The position numbers are program-made. From Cyanobacteria bacterium P01_A01_bin.123 (GTDB lineage Bacteria > Cyanobacteriota > Cyanobacteriia > Phormidesmidales > Phormidesmidaceae), in assembly GCA_039815185.1 (NCBI GenBank), contig JBCBZT010000036.1:1-64000 (forward strand): a DNA stretch of 64,000 nucleotides, in the 5' to 3' direction. Of this stretch, positions 1-6,000 are shown in pieces. How positions within the stretch are numbered: the first letter of the stretch is position 1; every line of letters starts with the position of its first letter.

Positions 1-3000
1 AGTGAAGCTGTGGAGCAAAGATGGCATCGAATTGCAGACCCTGCAAGGCCATAGCGATTGGGTCTTGAGTGTGGCCTTCAGCCCGGATGGTGAAACCCTC
101 GCCAGTGCCAGTGCGGACAACACGGTGAAGCTGTGGAGCAAAGACGGCACTGAATTGCAGACCCTGCAAGGCCATAGCAGTTCAGTCTTGAGTGTGGCCT
201 TCAGCCCGGATGGTGAAGCCCTCGCCAGTGCCAGTGCGGACAACACGGTGAAGCTGTGGAGCAAAGACGGCACTGAATTGCAGACCCTGCAAGGCCATAG
301 CAGTTCAGTCTGGAGTGTGGCCTTCAGCCCGGATGGTGAAACCCTCGCCAGTGCCAGTGATAACAACACGGTGAAGCTGTGGAGCAAAGACGGTACTGAA
401 TTGCAGACCCTGCAAGGCCATAGCGATTGGGTCAGGAGTGTGGCCTTCAGCCCGGATGGTGAAATCCTCGCCACGGCCGGTGATAACAACACGGTGAAGC
501 TGTGGGACTTTGAATTAGAGGATTTGATCGCAAGGGGCTGTGATTGGCTCGGCACCTATTTTGTCAAGCAGTCGCCAGCGTTGTTGATGGAGTTGGTGGT
601 ATGTCAGCAACAGAATCCGTCATTAACAGTTGCAGCAGCCCCGCTTCTGGTTGCTCAAGGGGAAGATCTGGCCCGCGAAGGAAACGTAGACGGGGCAATC
701 GCGTTGTTGAGGCAGGCTGTTGCTTGGGATCAGACCCTGACAATACAGCCGCAAATCCGAGCCAGAAATCTTGCGAAGTCTCAAACTTTAGTGACTGAAG
801 CAGAAGAACTGGCTAAAGCCGGACAATTATCTGAAGCAGTGGCGAAGCTTGATGAAGCCCAAGGGCTAGATCCAGCGCTTGATTTTGAACCTGAAATGTA
901 TGCTAAAGAGCTGCTAGTACAGGTGTATATAGATGAAGGGCAAAATCTGGTTAGGAGTGGCAATGTTGACGAAGCTGTGCAACTCTATCGCAACGCAGAA
1001 GCACTTGAAATTGGAGCGGGTATTTCCGCTAATGATTGGAACGACCTTTGCTGGTTTGGTAGCCTCTACAACCAAGCCGAAAAAGTTATGTTTGCCTGTG
1101 AAAGGGCCGTTGTCTTGACCCCTAACCACGGTGGTAGGATTGATAGCCGCGGCCTCGCCCGCGCCCTCACAGGTGATACTCAAGGGGCCACTGCCGACTT
1201 CAAAACCTTCGTCGAATGGACTACAAACGACGACGAAAAAGCCCAACGCCAAGCCTGGATTGAAGCCCTAGAGCAAGGTAAAAACCCCTTCACCCCTGAA
1301 GTGTTGGAAGCGCTGAGGTAATGATGCCAGATTGCTTGTGGGCTAAGCATCCTGGCGATACTCGGTGCATTAAGCAATCTGGCCAACACTATACTAACTC
1401 ACTATGGCCTACAGTCAGTTCAAAACCATCAGCAGTGCCAAAACCGCTTTCAATCTGACTGTGATCGAAGGCGATCGCTTTTTGCCCCCCATCGCAGCCA
1501 TTGAACCCTCTCCCATCCTGTCCGGTTATCTCCAAGAAAGCTTACCCATTGTCGCCACATCCAGCAGCGAAAAAGCCCGCTCAGAAGGCATCATCTACCT
1601 TCAAAACCGGGTTTGGTCAATGCATTGCCGAGATGTTGGCTGCCCAACGGTTTAATCAAGCCCCAAAGACGCCTATTCCAATCATTTATGGCAGCGTCAG
1701 CAACGGTATTCAATGGCAATTCTTGGCCTTAGCAGACTCAACCCTCACCATTGATCTAAACGTATATGCATTGCCGCCAATCGATCAAATCCTGGGTTAT
1801 TTGGTGTGGATGGCTAAGATACCTGATTGAACAGCTACATTAAATATAATGACTATACCTACCCATAAATGCCTACTTCAGAGCAGATGCTGGCTTGCAT
1901 CCGCGTTTGTCAAGCTTTGTCCAATTTTTATCTCGACATTCATTTGTTTCGTTTTGATGCCAAACGCGAAGAGCTTTACATTTTGGCAGGACTGTCAATC
2001 GGGTTAACTATCTTCAAAAATGGTCTTTGGGAATTCGACAATGACACAGAAACCTAACCTTCAAACAATGCCACGCAGGGAGCTTAGAGCCTATGTGCTA
2101 TCCCATCGAGATGATGAAAATGCCTTACGCATTTATATGGATCGTCTGAAAAGTGAATCTGGAATTATTCGGCATCAAGGCGGTATTACAGCAGACGACT
2201 TAGATCAACTCGATCAACTGCTGCAAAGGAGCACCAGCAAAACTGGAGACGCTGGGTAGAGATAGCGCTTCCGGATTGTCTCTAGCTCCTAAGCTTTGCC
2301 TTGGAAACCTTGCTAAAGATTCTAATTCTCGAATAGTCACAACACCTCCACAATTCCCCTTTCCCCATCAATTCTGACCCGCTGCCCATTCCTTAACCGC
2401 TGGGTCGCCTCAGCAATATCCATCACCGCCGGAATGCCATACTCCCGCGCCACGATCGCGCCGTGGGAGAGCCGTCCCCCGACCTCAGCAATTAAACCGC
2501 TGGCTCGTGCGAGCAGGGGTGCCCACCCAGCATCGGTATAGGGCACCACTAAAATCTTGCCGTCAATGTCGGTGGGAATACCCTGAAATTGGGTAACAAC
2601 CTGGATATCGCCCTCAATCTGCCCCGGACTCGCCCCAATCCCCCGCATCGCCTGGGCAGTCGCCACCGGAGCCACTAAGTGATCGAGCAAAGGCGGGGCA
2701 TAGCCGTAGGTTAAGGTGGGAATCGGCGATCGCCCCTGATCCTCACCAAACTGAATTTTTCGAGCCGCGATCGCCTCCTGTAAATCTTTGCCATCGGCAT
2801 CACTGGCCTCAATCACCTGGCGAATTTCTGCGAACTCCAGAAAAAATAGATCCCCAGGCGCTTTCAAAATCGCCGCTTGGAGCCACCGTTGTTCTAAGGC
2901 CACAAAGCTCCAGCGCAGTTCCGCCAATAAGCGACTATACACTTCGTTGACCCGCCCCTTCAAATCGAGCCGCCGCTGCACCCGCCGCACCTTGCCTGGT

Positions 3001-6000
3001 TGCCCCTGCTGTCGATCGGGATCGTTCGCCTTGGGAGCCTGTCGGGGATTCAATAAAAACTGGGTAAACAGCTCTCTTACGGGGCGTGGATTTTCGTACC
3101 AGGTGGGCACAGCAATATCAGTCCCGACTTGGCTGAGATAACCATATCGCTGCAAAAATCCCTGTAGCCGTTCCAGCACGGCTTGGCCATCAGGGTTTTC
3201 AGCCAGTGCCGCAAATAGCGCCGACGTTGAATCGGGTAGTGAATCTAGGGAACCCAACACGGCTCGCGATTCTCGGGCAATCGCGCTGAGATCTTTCAGT
3301 GCCGATACTTCTGGGTTACGACCGTTGTCCAACTGATCATCTGGTACCTTCAAGATCGCCTTGCGCAGGGCAAAGCTCAGGGGCACCAAAATGTTGTAAT
3401 AGGTGGCTTGGGTGAGAGCTTCTAAGATCAAATCAATCCGGTCAAGCAAAGACTCTTCATCCAATGTTTTCGCAGATTGCTTAGCCAGACGATTGAGGGT
3501 GGGGGTGAAACAGGCTTGGTCGGCTTGGGCAAAATCTTTGCCCACTCGCAGTTCACGCCCCACCAAACGCAGCAATCCTGGCAGATTCTTAAGGGTTGTG
3601 GTGATCGGCGGCTTACTAAATTTTGCCCCCCGCGTCAAAAATTCTAGACTCTCCGGGGGCAACCCCATCCGCAAAAAGATATCCCCCAACAGCGTGGCGT
3701 TGAAATAAGCATAGGCGTGGTGCAGGGTGGCGGTTTCTTCAAAGTTAAGCCCCTCGGCGCGATCGCCCAAAACGATGGTAAAAATATCGCCCCACACGCC
3801 ACAGGTCAATGGGCGATTAATCGACCACGTTAGGGGCCGAATCGCCCCAGGAATCACTTCAGCCGCAATTTTGCGTGTCCAAATTGGCGTCAGCGTGGTG
3901 ATCGGGCGGCTTTGCAGTAACCACAGCTGCGTTCCGTCAAATGTCCATTCGATGTCTTGGGGCACCCCCCGGTAGCGGGTTTCTAAATGTCGGGCCAAAA
4001 ATGCCACTTGCTGGATTAGCGTCCCGGGCAACTGACCCCTACCTTCCACAGTTAGTTCAAGCACCGGGGGCAATTGCCACGTGTCAGACGCGTCGCCATA
4101 GTCAAAGGTGGGGATGTCGCTGGGTTGCACCACCACTCGATATTGCTCTGGCGTGGTGTGACCCGACACCACCTGCTCCGCTGATCCGGGTAAGGCCTCA
4201 ATCACCACTGCATCCCCAGCCCGACCCACCGGGTCGCGGCTAAAAGCCACGCCCGAAAATGCACCTCCCACCTGCTGCTGCACAATCACCGCCATACTGG
4301 CGTCAGGCAAGCCGCGATCGCGCCGATATTGCACTGCCGCTGGCCCATTGTAAGACCCATAGCAGCGGGTGATGGCCGTGGTTAAAGTCTCTCGGTCCGC
4401 CACGTTTAAAATCGATAAATATTGCCCCGCCGCCGAAGCCGTTTCACTGTCTTCGCCAATGGCTGAAGACCGCACGGCTACGGGTTGTTGGGGAGAGGCT
4501 TGGGTCACCGCCAAGAGTGGCGTTGGGTCATCCCCTGAGGGCAACACATATCCCATCGGTACCGGATAGCCCCAGCGTCTCAACTGAGCCAGCGTCGCGG
4601 CTTTGGCCCCCACCTTGGCTGCATCTAGGGACTTCTCGAAGGACAACAGGGCGCGATCGCCGCGAAAAAATCGAAACATTTTTTGAGACTCCAAGCGACC
4701 TTCATTGCCATCTAGATCCAAATCGTCAGGAATTTTTTGATAAATCCAGGCAATTAACCCGGACAAAGCAACCACCGCCCCAGTACGAACACCATCGGTG
4801 TGACGCAAGGCGGTCAAAATCGGCAGCAAAATTAGCACCAGCAGTCTTCCCTGCTTGCGCTCTCGCGCCACGGTAAAAAACAAGCCGCTAATTAAAAAAG
4901 TCAGCCCCGACACAATCGGGTCATGTACCACAAAGCCCCAGGTCACATTAGTCGTACCGGCCCCTTGGGCAAACCAGTAGCGCCCCATTACCAGGGCAAT
5001 CAAGGCAATCACTTCCCACGTGGGATCTTTAGGAAAAAACTGACGCGCCAATAGCACTGCCCCAATGCCTTTGAGCATTTCTGACAGCACCGCCAGTATC
5101 CCGGCCCACCGCCCACCGTGATAGAACGCCGCCGAAACGCTGACATTGCCCGTGCCCAATGTTTCAAGCTGTCTACCGCTCACTAGCCGCGTTATCCACC
5201 CGGTCAGCGGTAACCCACCCAGCAGCGGACAAACAATAAAAACCAGCAATGCGCCCCAAACCTGGGTAATGGTCATAGCAGTTGAATTCGATGTTCTACG
5301 GTATATTCTCGACGCAGTATCTGAGAATGCCAAGAATTTGGCCAACATCGTTGCGGAAATACTCGCTCAAGTCTCCTCCGAGCCCTAAGCAAACACCACC
5401 GTACGGTTGCCATAGACGAGAATGCGATTTTGTAGATGGAGCCGTACTGCCCGCGCCAGCACCATGCGTTCGAGATCCTTACCCTTACGGATCAAATCGG
5501 CGACGTCGTCGCGGTGGCTGATGTGCACCACGTCTTGTTCGATGATCGGGCCAGCATCAAGGTCGCCAGTAATATAGTGAGCCGTGGCACCAATAATTTT
5601 GACGCCACGCTCGTAGGCCCGCTGGTAAGGGTTGGCTCCCACAAAGGCCGGCAAAAAAGAATGGTGAATGTTGATAATCCGGGGGAACTGGGCAATAAAG
5701 TCTTCGCTGAGCACCTGCATATATTTGGCTAATACGACTAAATCGATGCGATATTTCTCTAGCAGTGCTAATTGCTTGGCTTCTTGCGCTGCCTTAGTCT
5801 CACGGGTTATGGGGAGGCAGTGATAGTCGATGCCAAACTGCTCGGCAATGGGTTGGAGGTTGGGGTGGTTACTAATAATCAGTGGGATCTCAGCCACAAA
5901 CTCTTTTGCCTGGTATCGCCAGAGCAAATCCAGCAGGCAATGATTTTGACGACTAACCCAGATGGCAATGCGAGGGACAGTGTCTGAGAAATGGAGCTGC

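What a model noticed while it worked through the whole genome (the two positions that open the first line are those of the whole stretch)
2337..5276. PlsY-like membrane domain fused to a rifampicin-phosphotransferase-type dikinase, mis-named glycerol-3-phosphate acyltra [...]
g00070 (979 aa) is not a second PlsY: a PlsY-fold membrane domain (16-177) is fused to a complete Rph-type phosphotransferase (ATP-grasp 261-463, helical domain, swivelling phosphohistidine domain 905-974). The PlsY-like part keeps GxGN and xxKG but has lost the His and Lys of the GH...GGKG motif that the true PlsY g03001 has. The fusion is conserved across filamentous cyanobacteria and points to ATP-driven phosphorylation of a membrane-embedded substrate rather than acyl transfer to glycerol-3-phosphate.
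Evidence so far: G3P_acyltransf 1e-17, PPDK_N 4.5e-46, PEP-utilizers 1.6e-23, Rph_4th. PDB: Listeria rifampin phosphotransferase 5hv1/5fbs 1e-51 over 262-979. Of the 120 best relatives of residues 1-260 (66-100% id) 118 are 965-1014 aa with all domains, 2 are about 672-aa pieces; many are named glycerol-3-phosphate acyltransferase. Alignment with g03001 and 9 fusions: GSGSTGTTN -> GTGNxxxSA, DLIKG -> ExxKG, GHSKSVWINFKGGKS -> MGRYWxxxGAGTT in all 10 fusions. plsX g05293 and plsY g03001 present. No paper on a PlsY fusion.
(Added by a program. Inside this text positions count along the whole contig: contig position 1 is position 1 of the stretch shown here. "Call 12" and the like, gene names such as g00115 and contig names such as C1 are that model's own, and its searches are not shown. 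The text may have been shortened before it was handed on; [...] marks where a part breaks off. The agent that wrote the report below was given it as the finding of a first reader that could run no searches.)

Follow-up and report, generated by a model that had tools for sequence, protein, structure and literature searches.

The report
PlsY-like membrane domain fused to dikinase
This cyanobacterial gene joins a remodelled copy of the membrane lipid enzyme PlsY to an ATP-driven, histidine-relay phosphotransferase; it is common in cyanobacteria, wrongly named in databases, apparently unstudied, and probably phosphorylates or activates a membrane lipid.

Summary
Window 2337-5276 (minus strand) encodes a 979-aa protein. 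It has a seven-helix PlsY-fold domain (1-192), a short linker helix, an ATP-grasp domain, a large helical domain and a C-terminal swivel domain carrying His938.

It is not a second PlsY. It scores 27.6-30 bits against the PlsY equivalog model (cut-off 137.2), while the genome's true PlsY scores 173. The glycerol-3-phosphate clamp is replaced. The part of the PlsY site that holds acyl-phosphate is kept in altered form.

It is not a plain rifampin phosphotransferase either. The ATP-site residues and the catalytic His are kept. The Arg666-Glu667 pair of RPH reads Lys-Gly.

The domain pair is in 125 of 401 sampled genomes of the phylum, nearly all as one long frame. It is also found in Chloroflexota and archaea, fused or as adjacent genes, there usually beside a MacB/Lol-type ABC exporter.

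Best reading (about 0.5): a membrane-integral dikinase that phosphorylates a lipid head group held by the PlsY-derived domain. The lipid is unknown. No paper was found. This scan had already noted the same fusion in six other genomes.

The parts
2337..5276 (-). Whole coding sequence, 979 aa plus stop; an alternative in-frame ATG lies at 5348
4701..5276 (-). PlsY-fold seven-helix membrane domain (residues 1-192)
   Evidence: Pfam PF02660 at 64.1 bits. The model matches PlsY 5xj5-5xj8 with TM 0.72-0.77 and Z 17.4-17.8.
5112..5156 (-). Motif-1 loop GTGNVSVSAAFYHGG (residues 41-55). By alignment to A. aeolicus PlsY: Ser35->Thr42, Asn37->Asn44, Thr41->Ser48, Asn42->Ala49, Arg45->Tyr52
4935..4985 (-). 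Motif-2 region GRYWFAQGAGTTNVTWG (residues 98-114). PlsY His92->Arg99. The Gly-rich 'phosphate hole' loop is kept as GAGTTN. PlsY Lys104 has no counterpart (Ala106, or a one-residue gap)
4713..4742 (-). YQKIPDDLDL (residues 179-188), in place of PlsY motif 3 (HRxNIxR). His177->Lys181, Asn180->Asp184. The Asp-Asp pair is conserved
   Evidence: MAFFT alignment with the genome's own PlsY. D184 in 52 of 60 and D185 in 48 of 60.
4632..4700 (-). Linker with the conserved amphipathic helix MFRFFRGD (residues 193-215); lowest model confidence
   Evidence: pLDDT 61-72 over residues 181-210, helix 195-205; conservation
3888..4631 (-). ATP-grasp nucleotide-binding domain (residues 216-463). Lys225, Arg269 and Ser288 correspond to RPH Lys22, Arg117 and Thr136
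2697..3887 (-). Central helical domain (residues 464-860), homologous to the substrate-binding domain of RPH
   Evidence: conserved blocks
2892..2978 (-). Segment QRRLDLKGRVNEVYSRLLAELRWSFVALE (residues 767-795). It aligns with the RPH 'GYREYPKY' loop: Arg666->Lys773, Glu667->Gly774. Arg788 is invariant
   Evidence: L-INS-i alignment, counts. hhalign instead places this RPH loop in a gap. The model shows one long helix 761-800.
2340..2696 (-). C-terminal swivelling phosphohistidine domain (residues 861-979)
   Evidence: Pfam PF00391 at 2.3e-23; VIA Z 18-19 to pyruvate kinase and Enzyme I His domains
2463..2465 (-). Codon of His938, the predicted phosphate-carrying histidine (= RPH His825)
   Evidence: His in 57 of 60

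Best explanation
The gene encodes a membrane-integral dikinase.

Step 1 is inferred from homology, with all catalytic residues present. The cytoplasmic ATP-grasp domain binds ATP and transfers the beta-phosphate to His938 on the C-terminal swivel domain, releasing AMP and Pi.

Step 2 is inferred. The swivel domain carries the phosphoryl group to an acceptor held at the cytoplasmic face of the membrane. That site would be formed by the central helical domain together with the PlsY-derived seven-helix domain.

The PlsY-derived domain has lost the half of the PlsY active site that clamps glycerol-3-phosphate. It has kept, in altered form, the half that holds the phosphate and carbonyl of a lipid acyl-phosphate: a Gly-rich loop, Thr41->Ser and His92->Arg. 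It therefore most likely holds the head group of a lipid, either the substrate or its phosphorylated product.

Net reaction proposed: lipid + ATP + H2O -> lipid-phosphate + AMP + Pi.

The lipid is unknown. A free fatty acid converted to acyl-phosphate fits the retained half-site best. A lipid alcohol (polyprenol, mono- or diacylglycerol) fits the known hydroxyl chemistry of Rph-type enzymes best.
For: (1) Architecture and fold. The model has pLDDT 90.2. The N-domain matches PlsY with rmsd 2.6-3.4 A; the best Foldseek row is the acyl-phosphate form 5xj7.

(2) Dikinase residues are kept across 60 aligned fusions: K225 56, R269 58, S/T288 55, E443 60, H938 57. The RPH roles come from passages of PMC4844700.

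(3) The membrane domain is conserved at the PlsY active-site loops, far beyond what an anchor needs: GTGN 50-52, A50 56, F51 57, G98 60, R99 56, G107 55, T109 51, N110 52, D184 52, D185 48, each of 60.

(4) The G3P clamp of A. aeolicus PlsY (Ser35, Arg45, Lys104, Asn180; PMC5700162 passages) reads Thr42, Tyr52, Ala106 or none, and Asp184. The acyl-phosphate ligands read Thr41->Ser48 and His92->Arg99, with the Gly-rich loop kept.

(5) Topology fits. The PlsY active site lies on the cytoplasmic side and the fold has seven helices. A C-terminal fusion therefore places the dikinase in the cytoplasm.

(6) Rosetta-stone evidence. Among 11 loci related to the distant fusion P0235, 3 are fused (Bathyarchaeia, Dehalococcoidales, an uncultured archaeon). 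In 6 a 239-251-aa PlsY-like gene lies directly upstream of a 776-808-aa dikinase (Anaerolineae). In 1 the PlsY-like gene lies one gene downstream. One locus is cut by the contig end.

(7) Joint decay. All 3 of 60 sequences with His938->Gln also have eroded membrane-domain motifs. The Picosynechococcus PCC 7002 copy (SYNPCC7002_A0291 by its source label) lacks the motif-1 loop, GAGTTN, DD, Lys225, the VRSSA..ED motif and the His.

(8) A MacB/Lol-type ABC exporter lies directly downstream in 8 of the 11 non-cyanobacterial loci. Pfam tested this in L049 and L047. The other six rest on matching ORF lengths and N-terminal sequences. This fits a membrane-derived product.
Against: No experiment exists and no substrate is known.

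In cyanobacteria no neighbouring gene is conserved: no neighbour family is shared by more than 4 of 22 loci.

The RPH Arg666-Glu667 dyad is Lys-Gly here, so the second transfer site cannot be assumed to work as in RPH. Two alignment methods disagree on this segment.

The model shows the swivel domain docked on the ATP-grasp domain, not near the membrane domain. It fits PPDK 1kbl as one body, Z 28.9 and rmsd 2.5 A over 340 residues, against 17.5-21 A to RPH. It is therefore silent on the acceptor site.

One fusion (P0148) lacks motif 1 but keeps every dikinase residue checked.

The two archaeal host genomes show no PlsX and no canonical PlsY; their completeness is unknown. This weakens the idea that the enzyme feeds acyl-phosphate to PlsY.

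Residue mapping to PlsY rests on sequence alignments at about 20% identity.
Confidence: 0.5

Rival explanations
1. Two-step lipid-activating acyltransferase. The dikinase makes an acyl-phosphate from a free fatty acid. The PlsY-derived domain then transfers the acyl group to an acceptor other than glycerol-3-phosphate. This would be activation by phosphorylation followed by condensation, as PigC/HapC do with their aldehyde substrate.
For: The acyl-phosphate half of the PlsY site is kept or conservatively changed, while the G3P half is rebuilt with a charge reversal (Asn180->Asp184, plus Asp185, Arg45->Tyr52). PlsY needs no catalytic base from the protein. HapC/PigC show that Rph-type enzymes can couple phosphorylation to condensation (PMC13534948 abstract and passages). 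The best Foldseek PlsY row is the acyl-phosphate form 5xj7, though its lead over the other PlsY forms is small.
Against: No acceptor is identified. A phosphohistidine donating to a carboxylate has no precedent among the Rph-type enzymes I read about. Archaea carrying the fusion would need free fatty acids. The central domain would have to bind a fatty acid, which is untested.
Confidence: 0.15
2. Anchor only. The PlsY-derived domain merely tethers an Rph-type kinase to the membrane. The substrate is a soluble or loosely hydrophobic small molecule bound wholly by the central domain.
For: In RPH and HapC the substrate site lies in the central domain. That domain is the most conserved part here. 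P0148 keeps the dikinase residues without motif 1. The linker has the lowest model confidence.
Against: Conservation in the membrane domain is concentrated on the loops that form the PlsY active site, not on generic hydrophobic positions. The domain stays a separate adjacent gene in Anaerolineae, where it cannot serve as a covalent anchor. Dead copies lose both sets of motifs together.
Confidence: 0.15
3. Detoxification module. The enzyme phosphorylates a lipophilic antibiotic or toxin that partitions into the membrane, as RPH inactivates rifamycins. A MacB-type pump then removes the product.
For: The closest solved relative is an antibiotic-resistance kinase. In Chloroflexota and one archaeon the genes sit next to a MacB/Lol-type ABC exporter, in L049 with an HlyD-type adaptor.
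Against: In cyanobacteria the gene is found across most sampled families (f7 45/45, f3 24/25, f4 6/6, f13 4/4). It has no pump beside it. That pattern looks vertically inherited and housekeeping-like. Some cyanobacteria also carry a separate true Rph, about 70% identical to RPH-Lm by my reading of the printed alignment.
Confidence: 0.08
4. A genuine second glycerol-3-phosphate acyltransferase, as many databases name it, with a regulatory kinase attached.
For: Pfam PF02660 is matched above its gathering score, and the fold is that of PlsY.
Against: It scores 27.6-30 bits against TIGR00023 (cut-off 137.2), while the genome's own PlsY scores 173. Arg45, Lys104, Asn180 and His177 are all replaced, and mutating these cripples PlsY.
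Confidence: 0.02

Closest known systems
Rifampin phosphotransferase RPH-Lm (Listeria monocytogenes; PDB 5FBS/5FBT/5FBU, 5HV1-3; NCBIfam NF041857)
   Same: Same domain order: ATP-grasp, large helical substrate domain, C-terminal swivel His domain. ATP-site Lys, Arg and Thr/Ser and the catalytic His are conserved. The expected chemistry is the same: ATP -> AMP + Pi with a phosphohistidine carrier.
   Different: An N-terminal seven-helix membrane domain is added. The ATP-grasp domain is shorter by roughly 55-70 residues. The Arg666-Glu667 dyad reads Lys-Gly. It scores 236.8 bits against a cut-off of 999. A separate true Rph exists in some cyanobacteria.
PlsY, acyl-phosphate:glycerol-3-phosphate acyltransferase (Aquifex aeolicus, PDB 5XJ5-5XJ9; TIGR00023)
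   Same: Seven-helix fold. The cytoplasm-facing loops sit at the same places. The Gly-rich loop, the Gly before His92 and the (D/E)xxKG helix are recognisable.
   Different: The G3P clamp and the 2-OH ligand His177 are replaced (Thr42, Tyr52, Ala106 or none, Asp184, Lys181). His92 is Arg. It fails the equivalog cut-off.
Prodiginine ligases PigC/HapC/RedH (NF052631, NF052632)
   Same: Rph-type three-domain enzymes acting on hydrophobic substrates. They use phosphorylation by the swivel His to activate a substrate for a second reaction.
   Different: No membrane domain. HapC keeps the RPH Arg666 equivalent (R692), whereas this protein has Lys. Scores are 220.8 and 225.7 bits against cut-offs of 1300 and 1350.
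Split Rph-type kinases such as HpeHI of Rhodococcus (PDB 9GOJ)
   Same: They show that Rph-type modules work as separate polypeptides and phosphorylate varied hydroxyl acceptors. HpeI matches the ATP-grasp domain here (E 4.6e-17; Z 17.6).
   Different: Soluble aromatic substrates and no PlsY-like partner. I saw only the abstract in the search listing.
FakA/FakB fatty acid kinase and PlsX, the known makers of acyl-phosphate
   Same: If the fatty-acid reading is right, the product (acyl-phosphate at the membrane) would be the same (abstracts listed).
   Different: Unrelated folds and mechanism. This is analogy only and was not tested.

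Membership tests
PlsY (acyl-phosphate:G3P acyltransferase, TIGR00023 / PF02660) | Seven-transmembrane-helix PlsY fold | tested here: met
   Foldseek TM 0.72-0.77, rmsd 2.6-2.9 A to 5xj5-5xj8. VIA Z 17.4-17.8 with 180-187 residues aligned.
PlsY (acyl-phosphate:G3P acyltransferase, TIGR00023 / PF02660) | Score above the curated equivalog cut-off (TIGR00023, 137.2 bits) | tested here: not met
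   30.0 bits and 27.6 bits. The genome's own PlsY scores 173 bits. The broad Pfam family PF02660 is passed (64.1 against 24.1).
PlsY (acyl-phosphate:G3P acyltransferase, TIGR00023 / PF02660) | G3P phosphate clamp Ser35, Arg45, Lys104, Asn180 (PMC5700162) | tested here: not met
   Thr42 (50/60), Tyr52 (45/60), Ala106 (45/60) or a gap, Asp184 (52/60). From. The mapping is by sequence alignment.
PlsY (acyl-phosphate:G3P acyltransferase, TIGR00023 / PF02660) | His177 and Ser142, which hold the G3P 2-OH | tested here: not met
   His177 aligns with Lys181 (Gln 22 and Lys 17 of 60). Ser142 was not mapped.
PlsY (acyl-phosphate:G3P acyltransferase, TIGR00023 / PF02660) | Acyl-phosphate site: His92, Thr41 and the backbone of the Gly-rich loop 104-107 | tested here: inconclusive
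   His92->Arg99 (56/60). Thr41->Ser48 (45/60); T41S keeps half the activity in PlsY. The loop is kept as GAGTT with Gly107 in 55/60. Binding was not tested.
Rifampin phosphotransferase (Rph, NF041857) | Domain order: ATP-grasp, helical substrate domain, C-terminal swivel domain with the catalytic His825 | tested here: met
   His938 aligns with His825 and is His in 57/60.
Rifampin phosphotransferase (Rph, NF041857) | ATP-site residues Lys22, Arg117, Thr136 | tested here: met
   Lys225 (56/60), Arg269 (58/60), Ser/Thr288 (55/60). From.
Rifampin phosphotransferase (Rph, NF041857) | Arg666-Glu667 dyad of the second active site; Ala substitution of either abolishes rifampin inactivation | tested here: not met
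   Lys773 (50/60) and Gly774 (48/60) by L-INS-i. hhalign puts the RPH loop in a gap. The Chloroflexota and archaeal relatives keep Arg followed by Glu, Asp or Gln.
Rifampin phosphotransferase (Rph, NF041857) | Score above the curated cut-off (999 bits) | tested here: not met
   236.8 bits. A cyanobacterial true Rph (L056) scores 1179.6 bits against the RPH-Lm chain over its full length.
Rifampin phosphotransferase (Rph, NF041857) | Phosphorylates rifamycins | not testable with these tools
   Needs an enzyme assay or a susceptibility test.
PEP synthase / pyruvate phosphate dikinase | C-terminal PEP/pyruvate-binding TIM-barrel domain (PF02896), with the His domain in the middle | tested here: not met
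   PF02896 gives no match. The true PEP synthase in the same window (29995-32376, minus strand) has it at 7.7e-64. TIGR01418 scores 173.7 against 739.75.
Prodiginine ligases PigC / RedH | Curated cut-offs (1300 and 1350 bits) | tested here: not met
   220.8 and 225.7 bits.

The most novel reading that the evidence does not exclude
The protein is a self-contained, CoA- and ACP-independent lipid-activating machine. The dikinase turns a free fatty acid (or another lipid carboxylate or alcohol) into a lipid phosphate inside the membrane. The PlsY-derived domain then uses that activated lipid to acylate a new, non-G3P acceptor bound in its rebuilt, acidic pocket. This would be an undescribed route of membrane-lipid synthesis or repair. 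It would also give a function to the 'orphan' PlsY homologues of archaea that lack PlsX.
Probability: 0.15. Interest if true: 0.85.

Novelty: new variant of a known kind. Interest (0 to 1): 0.65.

Why it matters
Cyanobacteria are major primary producers and production hosts for fatty acids and lipids. This large, conserved membrane enzyme is present in most sampled families of the class. It was not found in the sampled small-genome groups (f18 0/29, g10 0/5, f12 0/1), and its copy in Picosynechococcus sp. PCC 7002 is catalytically dead. From genome sizes I guess that those groups include the usual laboratory models; that is a guess, not a result. It may explain why no paper was found.

Databases call the protein 'glycerol-3-phosphate acyltransferase' or 'pyruvate phosphate dikinase', and both names fail the residue tests. 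That misleads metabolic reconstructions.

If it phosphorylates or activates a lipid, it adds a new reaction to membrane-lipid metabolism and a new substrate class to the Rph/PEP-synthase superfamily. The fused and split relatives in Chloroflexota and archaea, next to MacB/Lol-type exporters, give a second, operon-based way to find the substrate.

Tried and rejected
- Complex prediction of the two halves (residues 1-192 against 193-979, each with the 60-row alignment). Score 0.00 against a mark of 0.32, controls not run; the tool's verdict is 'no answer'. Not used as evidence either way.
- RNA evidence. 12 runs hold the stretch, none on record as RNA, so no RNA holder is listed.
- Gene neighbourhood in cyanobacteria. 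21 loci plus the window, ORFs clustered by BLASTP. The most widely shared neighbour family is in 4 loci; nothing useful.
- Chloroflexota sample. The split PlsY-like protein of L049 was found in 1 of 301 genomes, the query's own genome. The split form is confined to a small clade, so its conserved operon is partly shared ancestry.
- Literature. Searches on PlsY + cyanobacteria + dikinase (2 papers by listing; neither title or abstract start concerns such a fusion), on SYNPCC7002_A0291 (0), on 'PlsY-like/homolog/paralog/domain' (5 by listing, none on a fusion), and on phosphohistidine/PlsY/ATP-grasp (29 hold at least two of the three terms; of the 12 listed, 2 hold PlsY, none on this fusion). 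Supplements were not searched. Subscription journals are not covered.
- The search of earlier findings by words returned nothing.
- I first inferred from hhalign that the RPH 'GYREYPKY' loop is deleted. A local-pair MAFFT alignment that includes the Chloroflexota and archaeal relatives aligns it without a gap and shows Lys-Gly instead. I report both.
- The apparent split form in a genome of the window's own family (L059: 186-aa plus 809-aa ORFs) breaks inside the DD motif with no intergenic gap. It looks like a frameshift or assembly error, not a natural split.
- The ABC-2/GldG-like transporter genes upstream in this window (7268-11533) are not shared by 3 or more of the 22 loci compared, so I do not link them to the gene.
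- No model coordinates or PAE were available, so I could not examine the domain interface or the pockets.

Full report
**What is there.** The finding's coordinates hold a single long open frame on the minus strand. It runs from ATG at 5276 to a stop at 2337-2339 and encodes 979 aa. An in-frame ATG at 5348 would add 24 residues. Pfam finds G3P_acyltransf at 16-177 (2.2e-17, 64.1 bits), PPDK_N at 261-463 (3.1e-47) and PEP-utilizers at 905-974 (2.3e-23). The best solved relative by sequence is the Listeria rifampin phosphotransferase RPH-Lm (5hv1, 5hv2, 5fbs; 1.1-1.3e-51), matched over 262-736 and 796-979. No NCBIfam model is passed. The best are PEP-synthase-like subfamilies (265 bits against 945), Rph (236.8 against 999), RedH (225.7 against 1350) and PigC (220.8 against 1300).

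**Structure model.** An AlphaFold2 model on a 60-sequence alignment (A2) has mean pLDDT 90.2 and pTM 0.78. Only the linker (residues 181-210, pLDDT 61-72) is weak. Residues 6-210 superpose on solved PlsY: Foldseek TM 0.72-0.77, rmsd 2.6-2.9 A; VIA Z 17.4-17.8 with 180-187 residues aligned. Residues 207-979 match RPH (Z 35) but with rmsd 17.5-21 A. The ATP-grasp and swivel domains together fit PPDK 1kbl/1dik as one rigid body (Z 28.9, rmsd 2.5 A, 340 residues). From memory, those PPDK crystals have the His domain next to the nucleotide domain. The much worse fit to maize PPDK (rmsd 13 A) in the same table agrees with that. The model therefore shows the state of the first half-reaction and says nothing about where the phosphate goes next.

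**Not a second PlsY.** The genome has a canonical plsY on contig C55 (167 bits to PF02660, 173 bits to TIGR00023, cut-off 137.2) and a plsX on C97. The N-domain here scores 27.6-30 bits to TIGR00023. Passages of the PlsY structure paper (PMC5700162) assign these roles:
- Ser35, Arg45, Lys104 and Asn180 clamp the G3P phosphate.
- Ser142 and His177 hold its 2-OH.
- His92, Thr41 and the backbone of residues 104-107 form the 'phosphate hole' for acyl-phosphate.

I aligned through the genome's own PlsY and directly. The fusion reads Thr42, Tyr52, Ala106 (or a one-residue gap), Asp184 and Lys181 for the G3P ligands. It reads Ser48, Arg99 and G-A-G-T-T for the acyl-phosphate ligands. Over 60 fusions these are strongly conserved: T42 50, Y52 45, A106 45, D184 52, D185 48, S48 45, R99 56, G107 55. 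The G3P half of the site is thus gone, with a charge reversal at Asn180. The lipid-phosphate half is recognisably kept. All of this mapping rests on alignments at about 20% identity.

**A dikinase of the Rph type, with a changed second site.** From passages of PMC4844700, RPH Lys22, Arg117 and Thr136 act on ATP. His825 carries the phosphate. Arg666-Glu667 (with Lys670) are essential for the transfer to rifampin. Here Lys225, Arg269, Ser288 and His938 correspond to the first four and are conserved (56, 58, 55 as S/T, and 57 of 60). For the second site I fetched true Rph homologues from genomes of the phylum sample. One of them (L056) aligns with RPH-Lm over its whole length at 1179.6 bits. A local-pair MAFFT alignment puts RPH 'GYREYPKY' opposite 'DLKGRVNE' here. 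That gives Arg666->Lys773 (50/60) and Glu667->Gly774 (48/60). The Chloroflexota and archaeal relatives keep Arg followed by Glu, Asp or Gln. hhalign instead places the RPH loop in a gap, and the model shows one unbroken helix 761-800. Either way the dyad is not conserved in the cyanobacterial family. HapC, by a modelling paper, keeps the Arg (PMC13534948, passages). The ATP-grasp domain also lacks roughly 55-70 residues of the RPH N-terminal part. The protein is not PEP synthase. It has no PEP-utilizers_C domain, whereas the true PpsA in the same window (29995-32376) has one.

**Distribution.**
- All 120 best full-length relatives listed are 963-1015 aa with the same four Pfam families. Many are named 'glycerol-3-phosphate acyltransferase' or 'pyruvate phosphate dikinase'.
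- The N-domain alone, searched against 1.84 billion representatives, finds only 229 proteins at E<=0.001 and 33 at E<=1e-30. Ordinary 200-aa PlsY-like proteins appear only from about 1e-7.
- In a sample of 401 genomes of the phylum, 125 have the fusion-type N-domain. All but 2 lie in families listed with the window's class.
- By my count, 122 of the 126 places lie in open frames of 916-1229 aa.
- It was not found in family f18 (0/29), genus g10 (0/5), f12 (0/1) or f21 (0/2), all of which have small genomes.
- Named hosts include Mastigocladopsis, Geitlerinema PCC 7407, Thermoleptolyngbya, Desertifilum, Phormidium and the unicellular Geminocystis NIES-3709.

**Outside cyanobacteria.** The distant fusion P0235 (27% identical overall) led to 11 loci.
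- Three are fused genes of 1006-1024 aa: a Bathyarchaeia MAG, a Dehalococcoidales MAG and an uncultured archaeon.
- In six Anaerolineae loci a 239-251-aa PlsY-like gene sits directly upstream of a 776-808-aa dikinase.
- In one locus the PlsY-like gene follows the dikinase after a CbiX/ferrochelatase-like gene.
- One locus is cut by the contig end.

None of these PlsY-like parts keeps Arg45 or Lys104. Eight of the 11 loci have an FtsX/MacB_PCD permease directly downstream, and in most of them an ABC ATPase as well. Pfam tested this in L049, which also has an HlyD-type adaptor, and in the archaeal L047. For the rest it rests on ORF length and near-identical N-termini. In L052 and L053 my ORF list shows only the permease. 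The nearest named relatives of these transporters are LolCDE, MacB, YbbA and DevA. The split form is rare: 1 of 301 sampled Chloroflexota. The seven Anaerolineae loci are therefore not independent, but the archaeal locus has a different gene order and a single-FtsX permease. The two archaeal genomes show no PlsX and no canonical PlsY; their completeness is unknown.

**Do the two modules work together?** In cyanobacteria the neighbours are not conserved, so the argument rests on three points.
- Conservation in the membrane domain sits on the loops that form the PlsY active site.
- The two parts stay adjacent when they are separate genes.
- They decay together. The three of 60 sequences with His938->Gln all have eroded N-domain motifs. 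The Picosynechococcus PCC 7002 protein (900 aa, labelled SYNPCC7002_A0291) has lost the motif-1 loop, GAGTTN, DD, Lys225, the VRSSA..ED motif and the His.

There is one counter-example. P0148 lacks motif 1 yet keeps all the dikinase residues checked.

**Most likely mechanism.**
1. ATP is bound in the ATP-grasp domain. His938 takes the beta-phosphate, and AMP and Pi leave. This follows from homology and the conserved residues.
2. The swivel domain then moves to an acceptor site at the cytoplasmic membrane surface. This step is inferred.
3. I propose that the acceptor is the head group of a lipid held by the PlsY-derived domain, with the central domain supplying Lys773, Arg788 and other invariant residues.
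4. The product would be a lipid phosphate.

A fatty acid giving acyl-phosphate fits the retained half-site. A lipid alcohol fits the hydroxyl chemistry known for Rph-type enzymes. The bolder reading is that the acyl-phosphate is then used by the same PlsY-derived domain to acylate a new acceptor. I put about 0.5 on the general reading and 0.15 each on the two-step acyltransferase and on 'anchor only'.

**Novelty.** I found no paper on such a fusion. A review notes that the function of archaeal PlsY homologues is still open (PMC9385802, passages). This scan has already reported the same fusion on six other genomes, with the same general reading. I re-tested their claims of reality, spread and split forms here.
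- the half-site analysis of the PlsY pocket;
- the Lys-Gly replacement of the RPH dyad;
- the ATP-grasp-engaged model state;
- the MacB/Lol-type exporter link;
- the dead PCC 7002 copy.

It is a new variant of known kinds of enzyme, with unknown substrate.

Noticed in passing
window 29995-32376 (-): A canonical PEP synthase (793 aa: PPDK_N, mobile His domain, PEP-utilizers_C) lies in the same window. The genome has five PEP-utilizers domains in all.
   Followed up: partly
window 5385-11533 (-): Upstream on the same strand lie purU (formyl-THF deformylase, ends 37 bp before the ORF's ATG at 5348 and 109 bp before the annotated ATG at 5276), a 273-aa acidic protein, and an ABC-2 type transporter set: a GldG-like auxiliary protein of 741 aa, a permease and an ATPase. 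Not shared by 3 or more of the 22 loci compared.
   Followed up: partly
window 2-1321 (+): An ORF with WD40-like repeats (repeated 'SVAFSPDGE.LASAS.DNTVKLW'). A related family is near the fusion in 3 other loci, probably by chance.
   Followed up: no
L020:7955-10657 (-) and protein P0272: The Picosynechococcus copy (PCC 7002, labelled SYNPCC7002_A0291, 900 aa) keeps the overall architecture. It has lost the catalytic His (Gln), the ATP-site Lys, the VRSSA..ED motif and all three membrane-domain motifs. It looks like a pseudoenzyme that is nevertheless conserved across the genus.
   Followed up: partly
proteins P0181, P0184, P0185; G264:C12:1159718-1161100: Short paralogues (344-392 aa, and a 601-aa open frame in a genome of the window's own family). 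They consist of a PlsY-like domain without the motif-1 loop plus an ATP-grasp-like domain only, with no central or swivel domain.
   Followed up: no
L059:2218-5210 (+): In a genome of the window's own family the fusion is broken into 186-aa and 809-aa ORFs exactly at the DD motif, with no gap between them. Probably a frameshift or an assembly error.
   Followed up: partly
L056:149-2761, L057:139-2847, L058:172-2787: Some genomes of the phylum sample carry a true rifampin phosphotransferase. L056 scores 1179.6 bits against the RPH-Lm chain over its full length; I estimate about 70% identity from the printed alignment. It is separate from the fusion.
   Followed up: partly
proteins P0207, P0208, P0211, P0213, P0215: Stand-alone PlsY-like proteins of about 190-212 aa. 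P0213 and P0215 are from Chloroflexota MAGs. They lack His92 and end in a conserved (R/K/P/T)DD motif instead of HRxNIxR. This looks like a wider PlsY-like clade of unknown function, named PlsY in databases.
   Followed up: no
L045:10456-12464 (+); L043:5907-6524 (-): In one Anaerolineae MAG a membrane CbiX/ferrochelatase-like gene sits between the dikinase and the PlsY-like gene. In the Bathyarchaeia MAG a second stand-alone PlsY-like gene (206 aa) lies just upstream of the fusion.
   Followed up: no
protein P0285: A Gloeobacterales MAG carries a 223-aa stand-alone protein of the fusion-type membrane domain on a 55-kb contig. The split form may therefore exist in the earliest-branching cyanobacteria. 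Its neighbours could not be read here.
   Followed up: no
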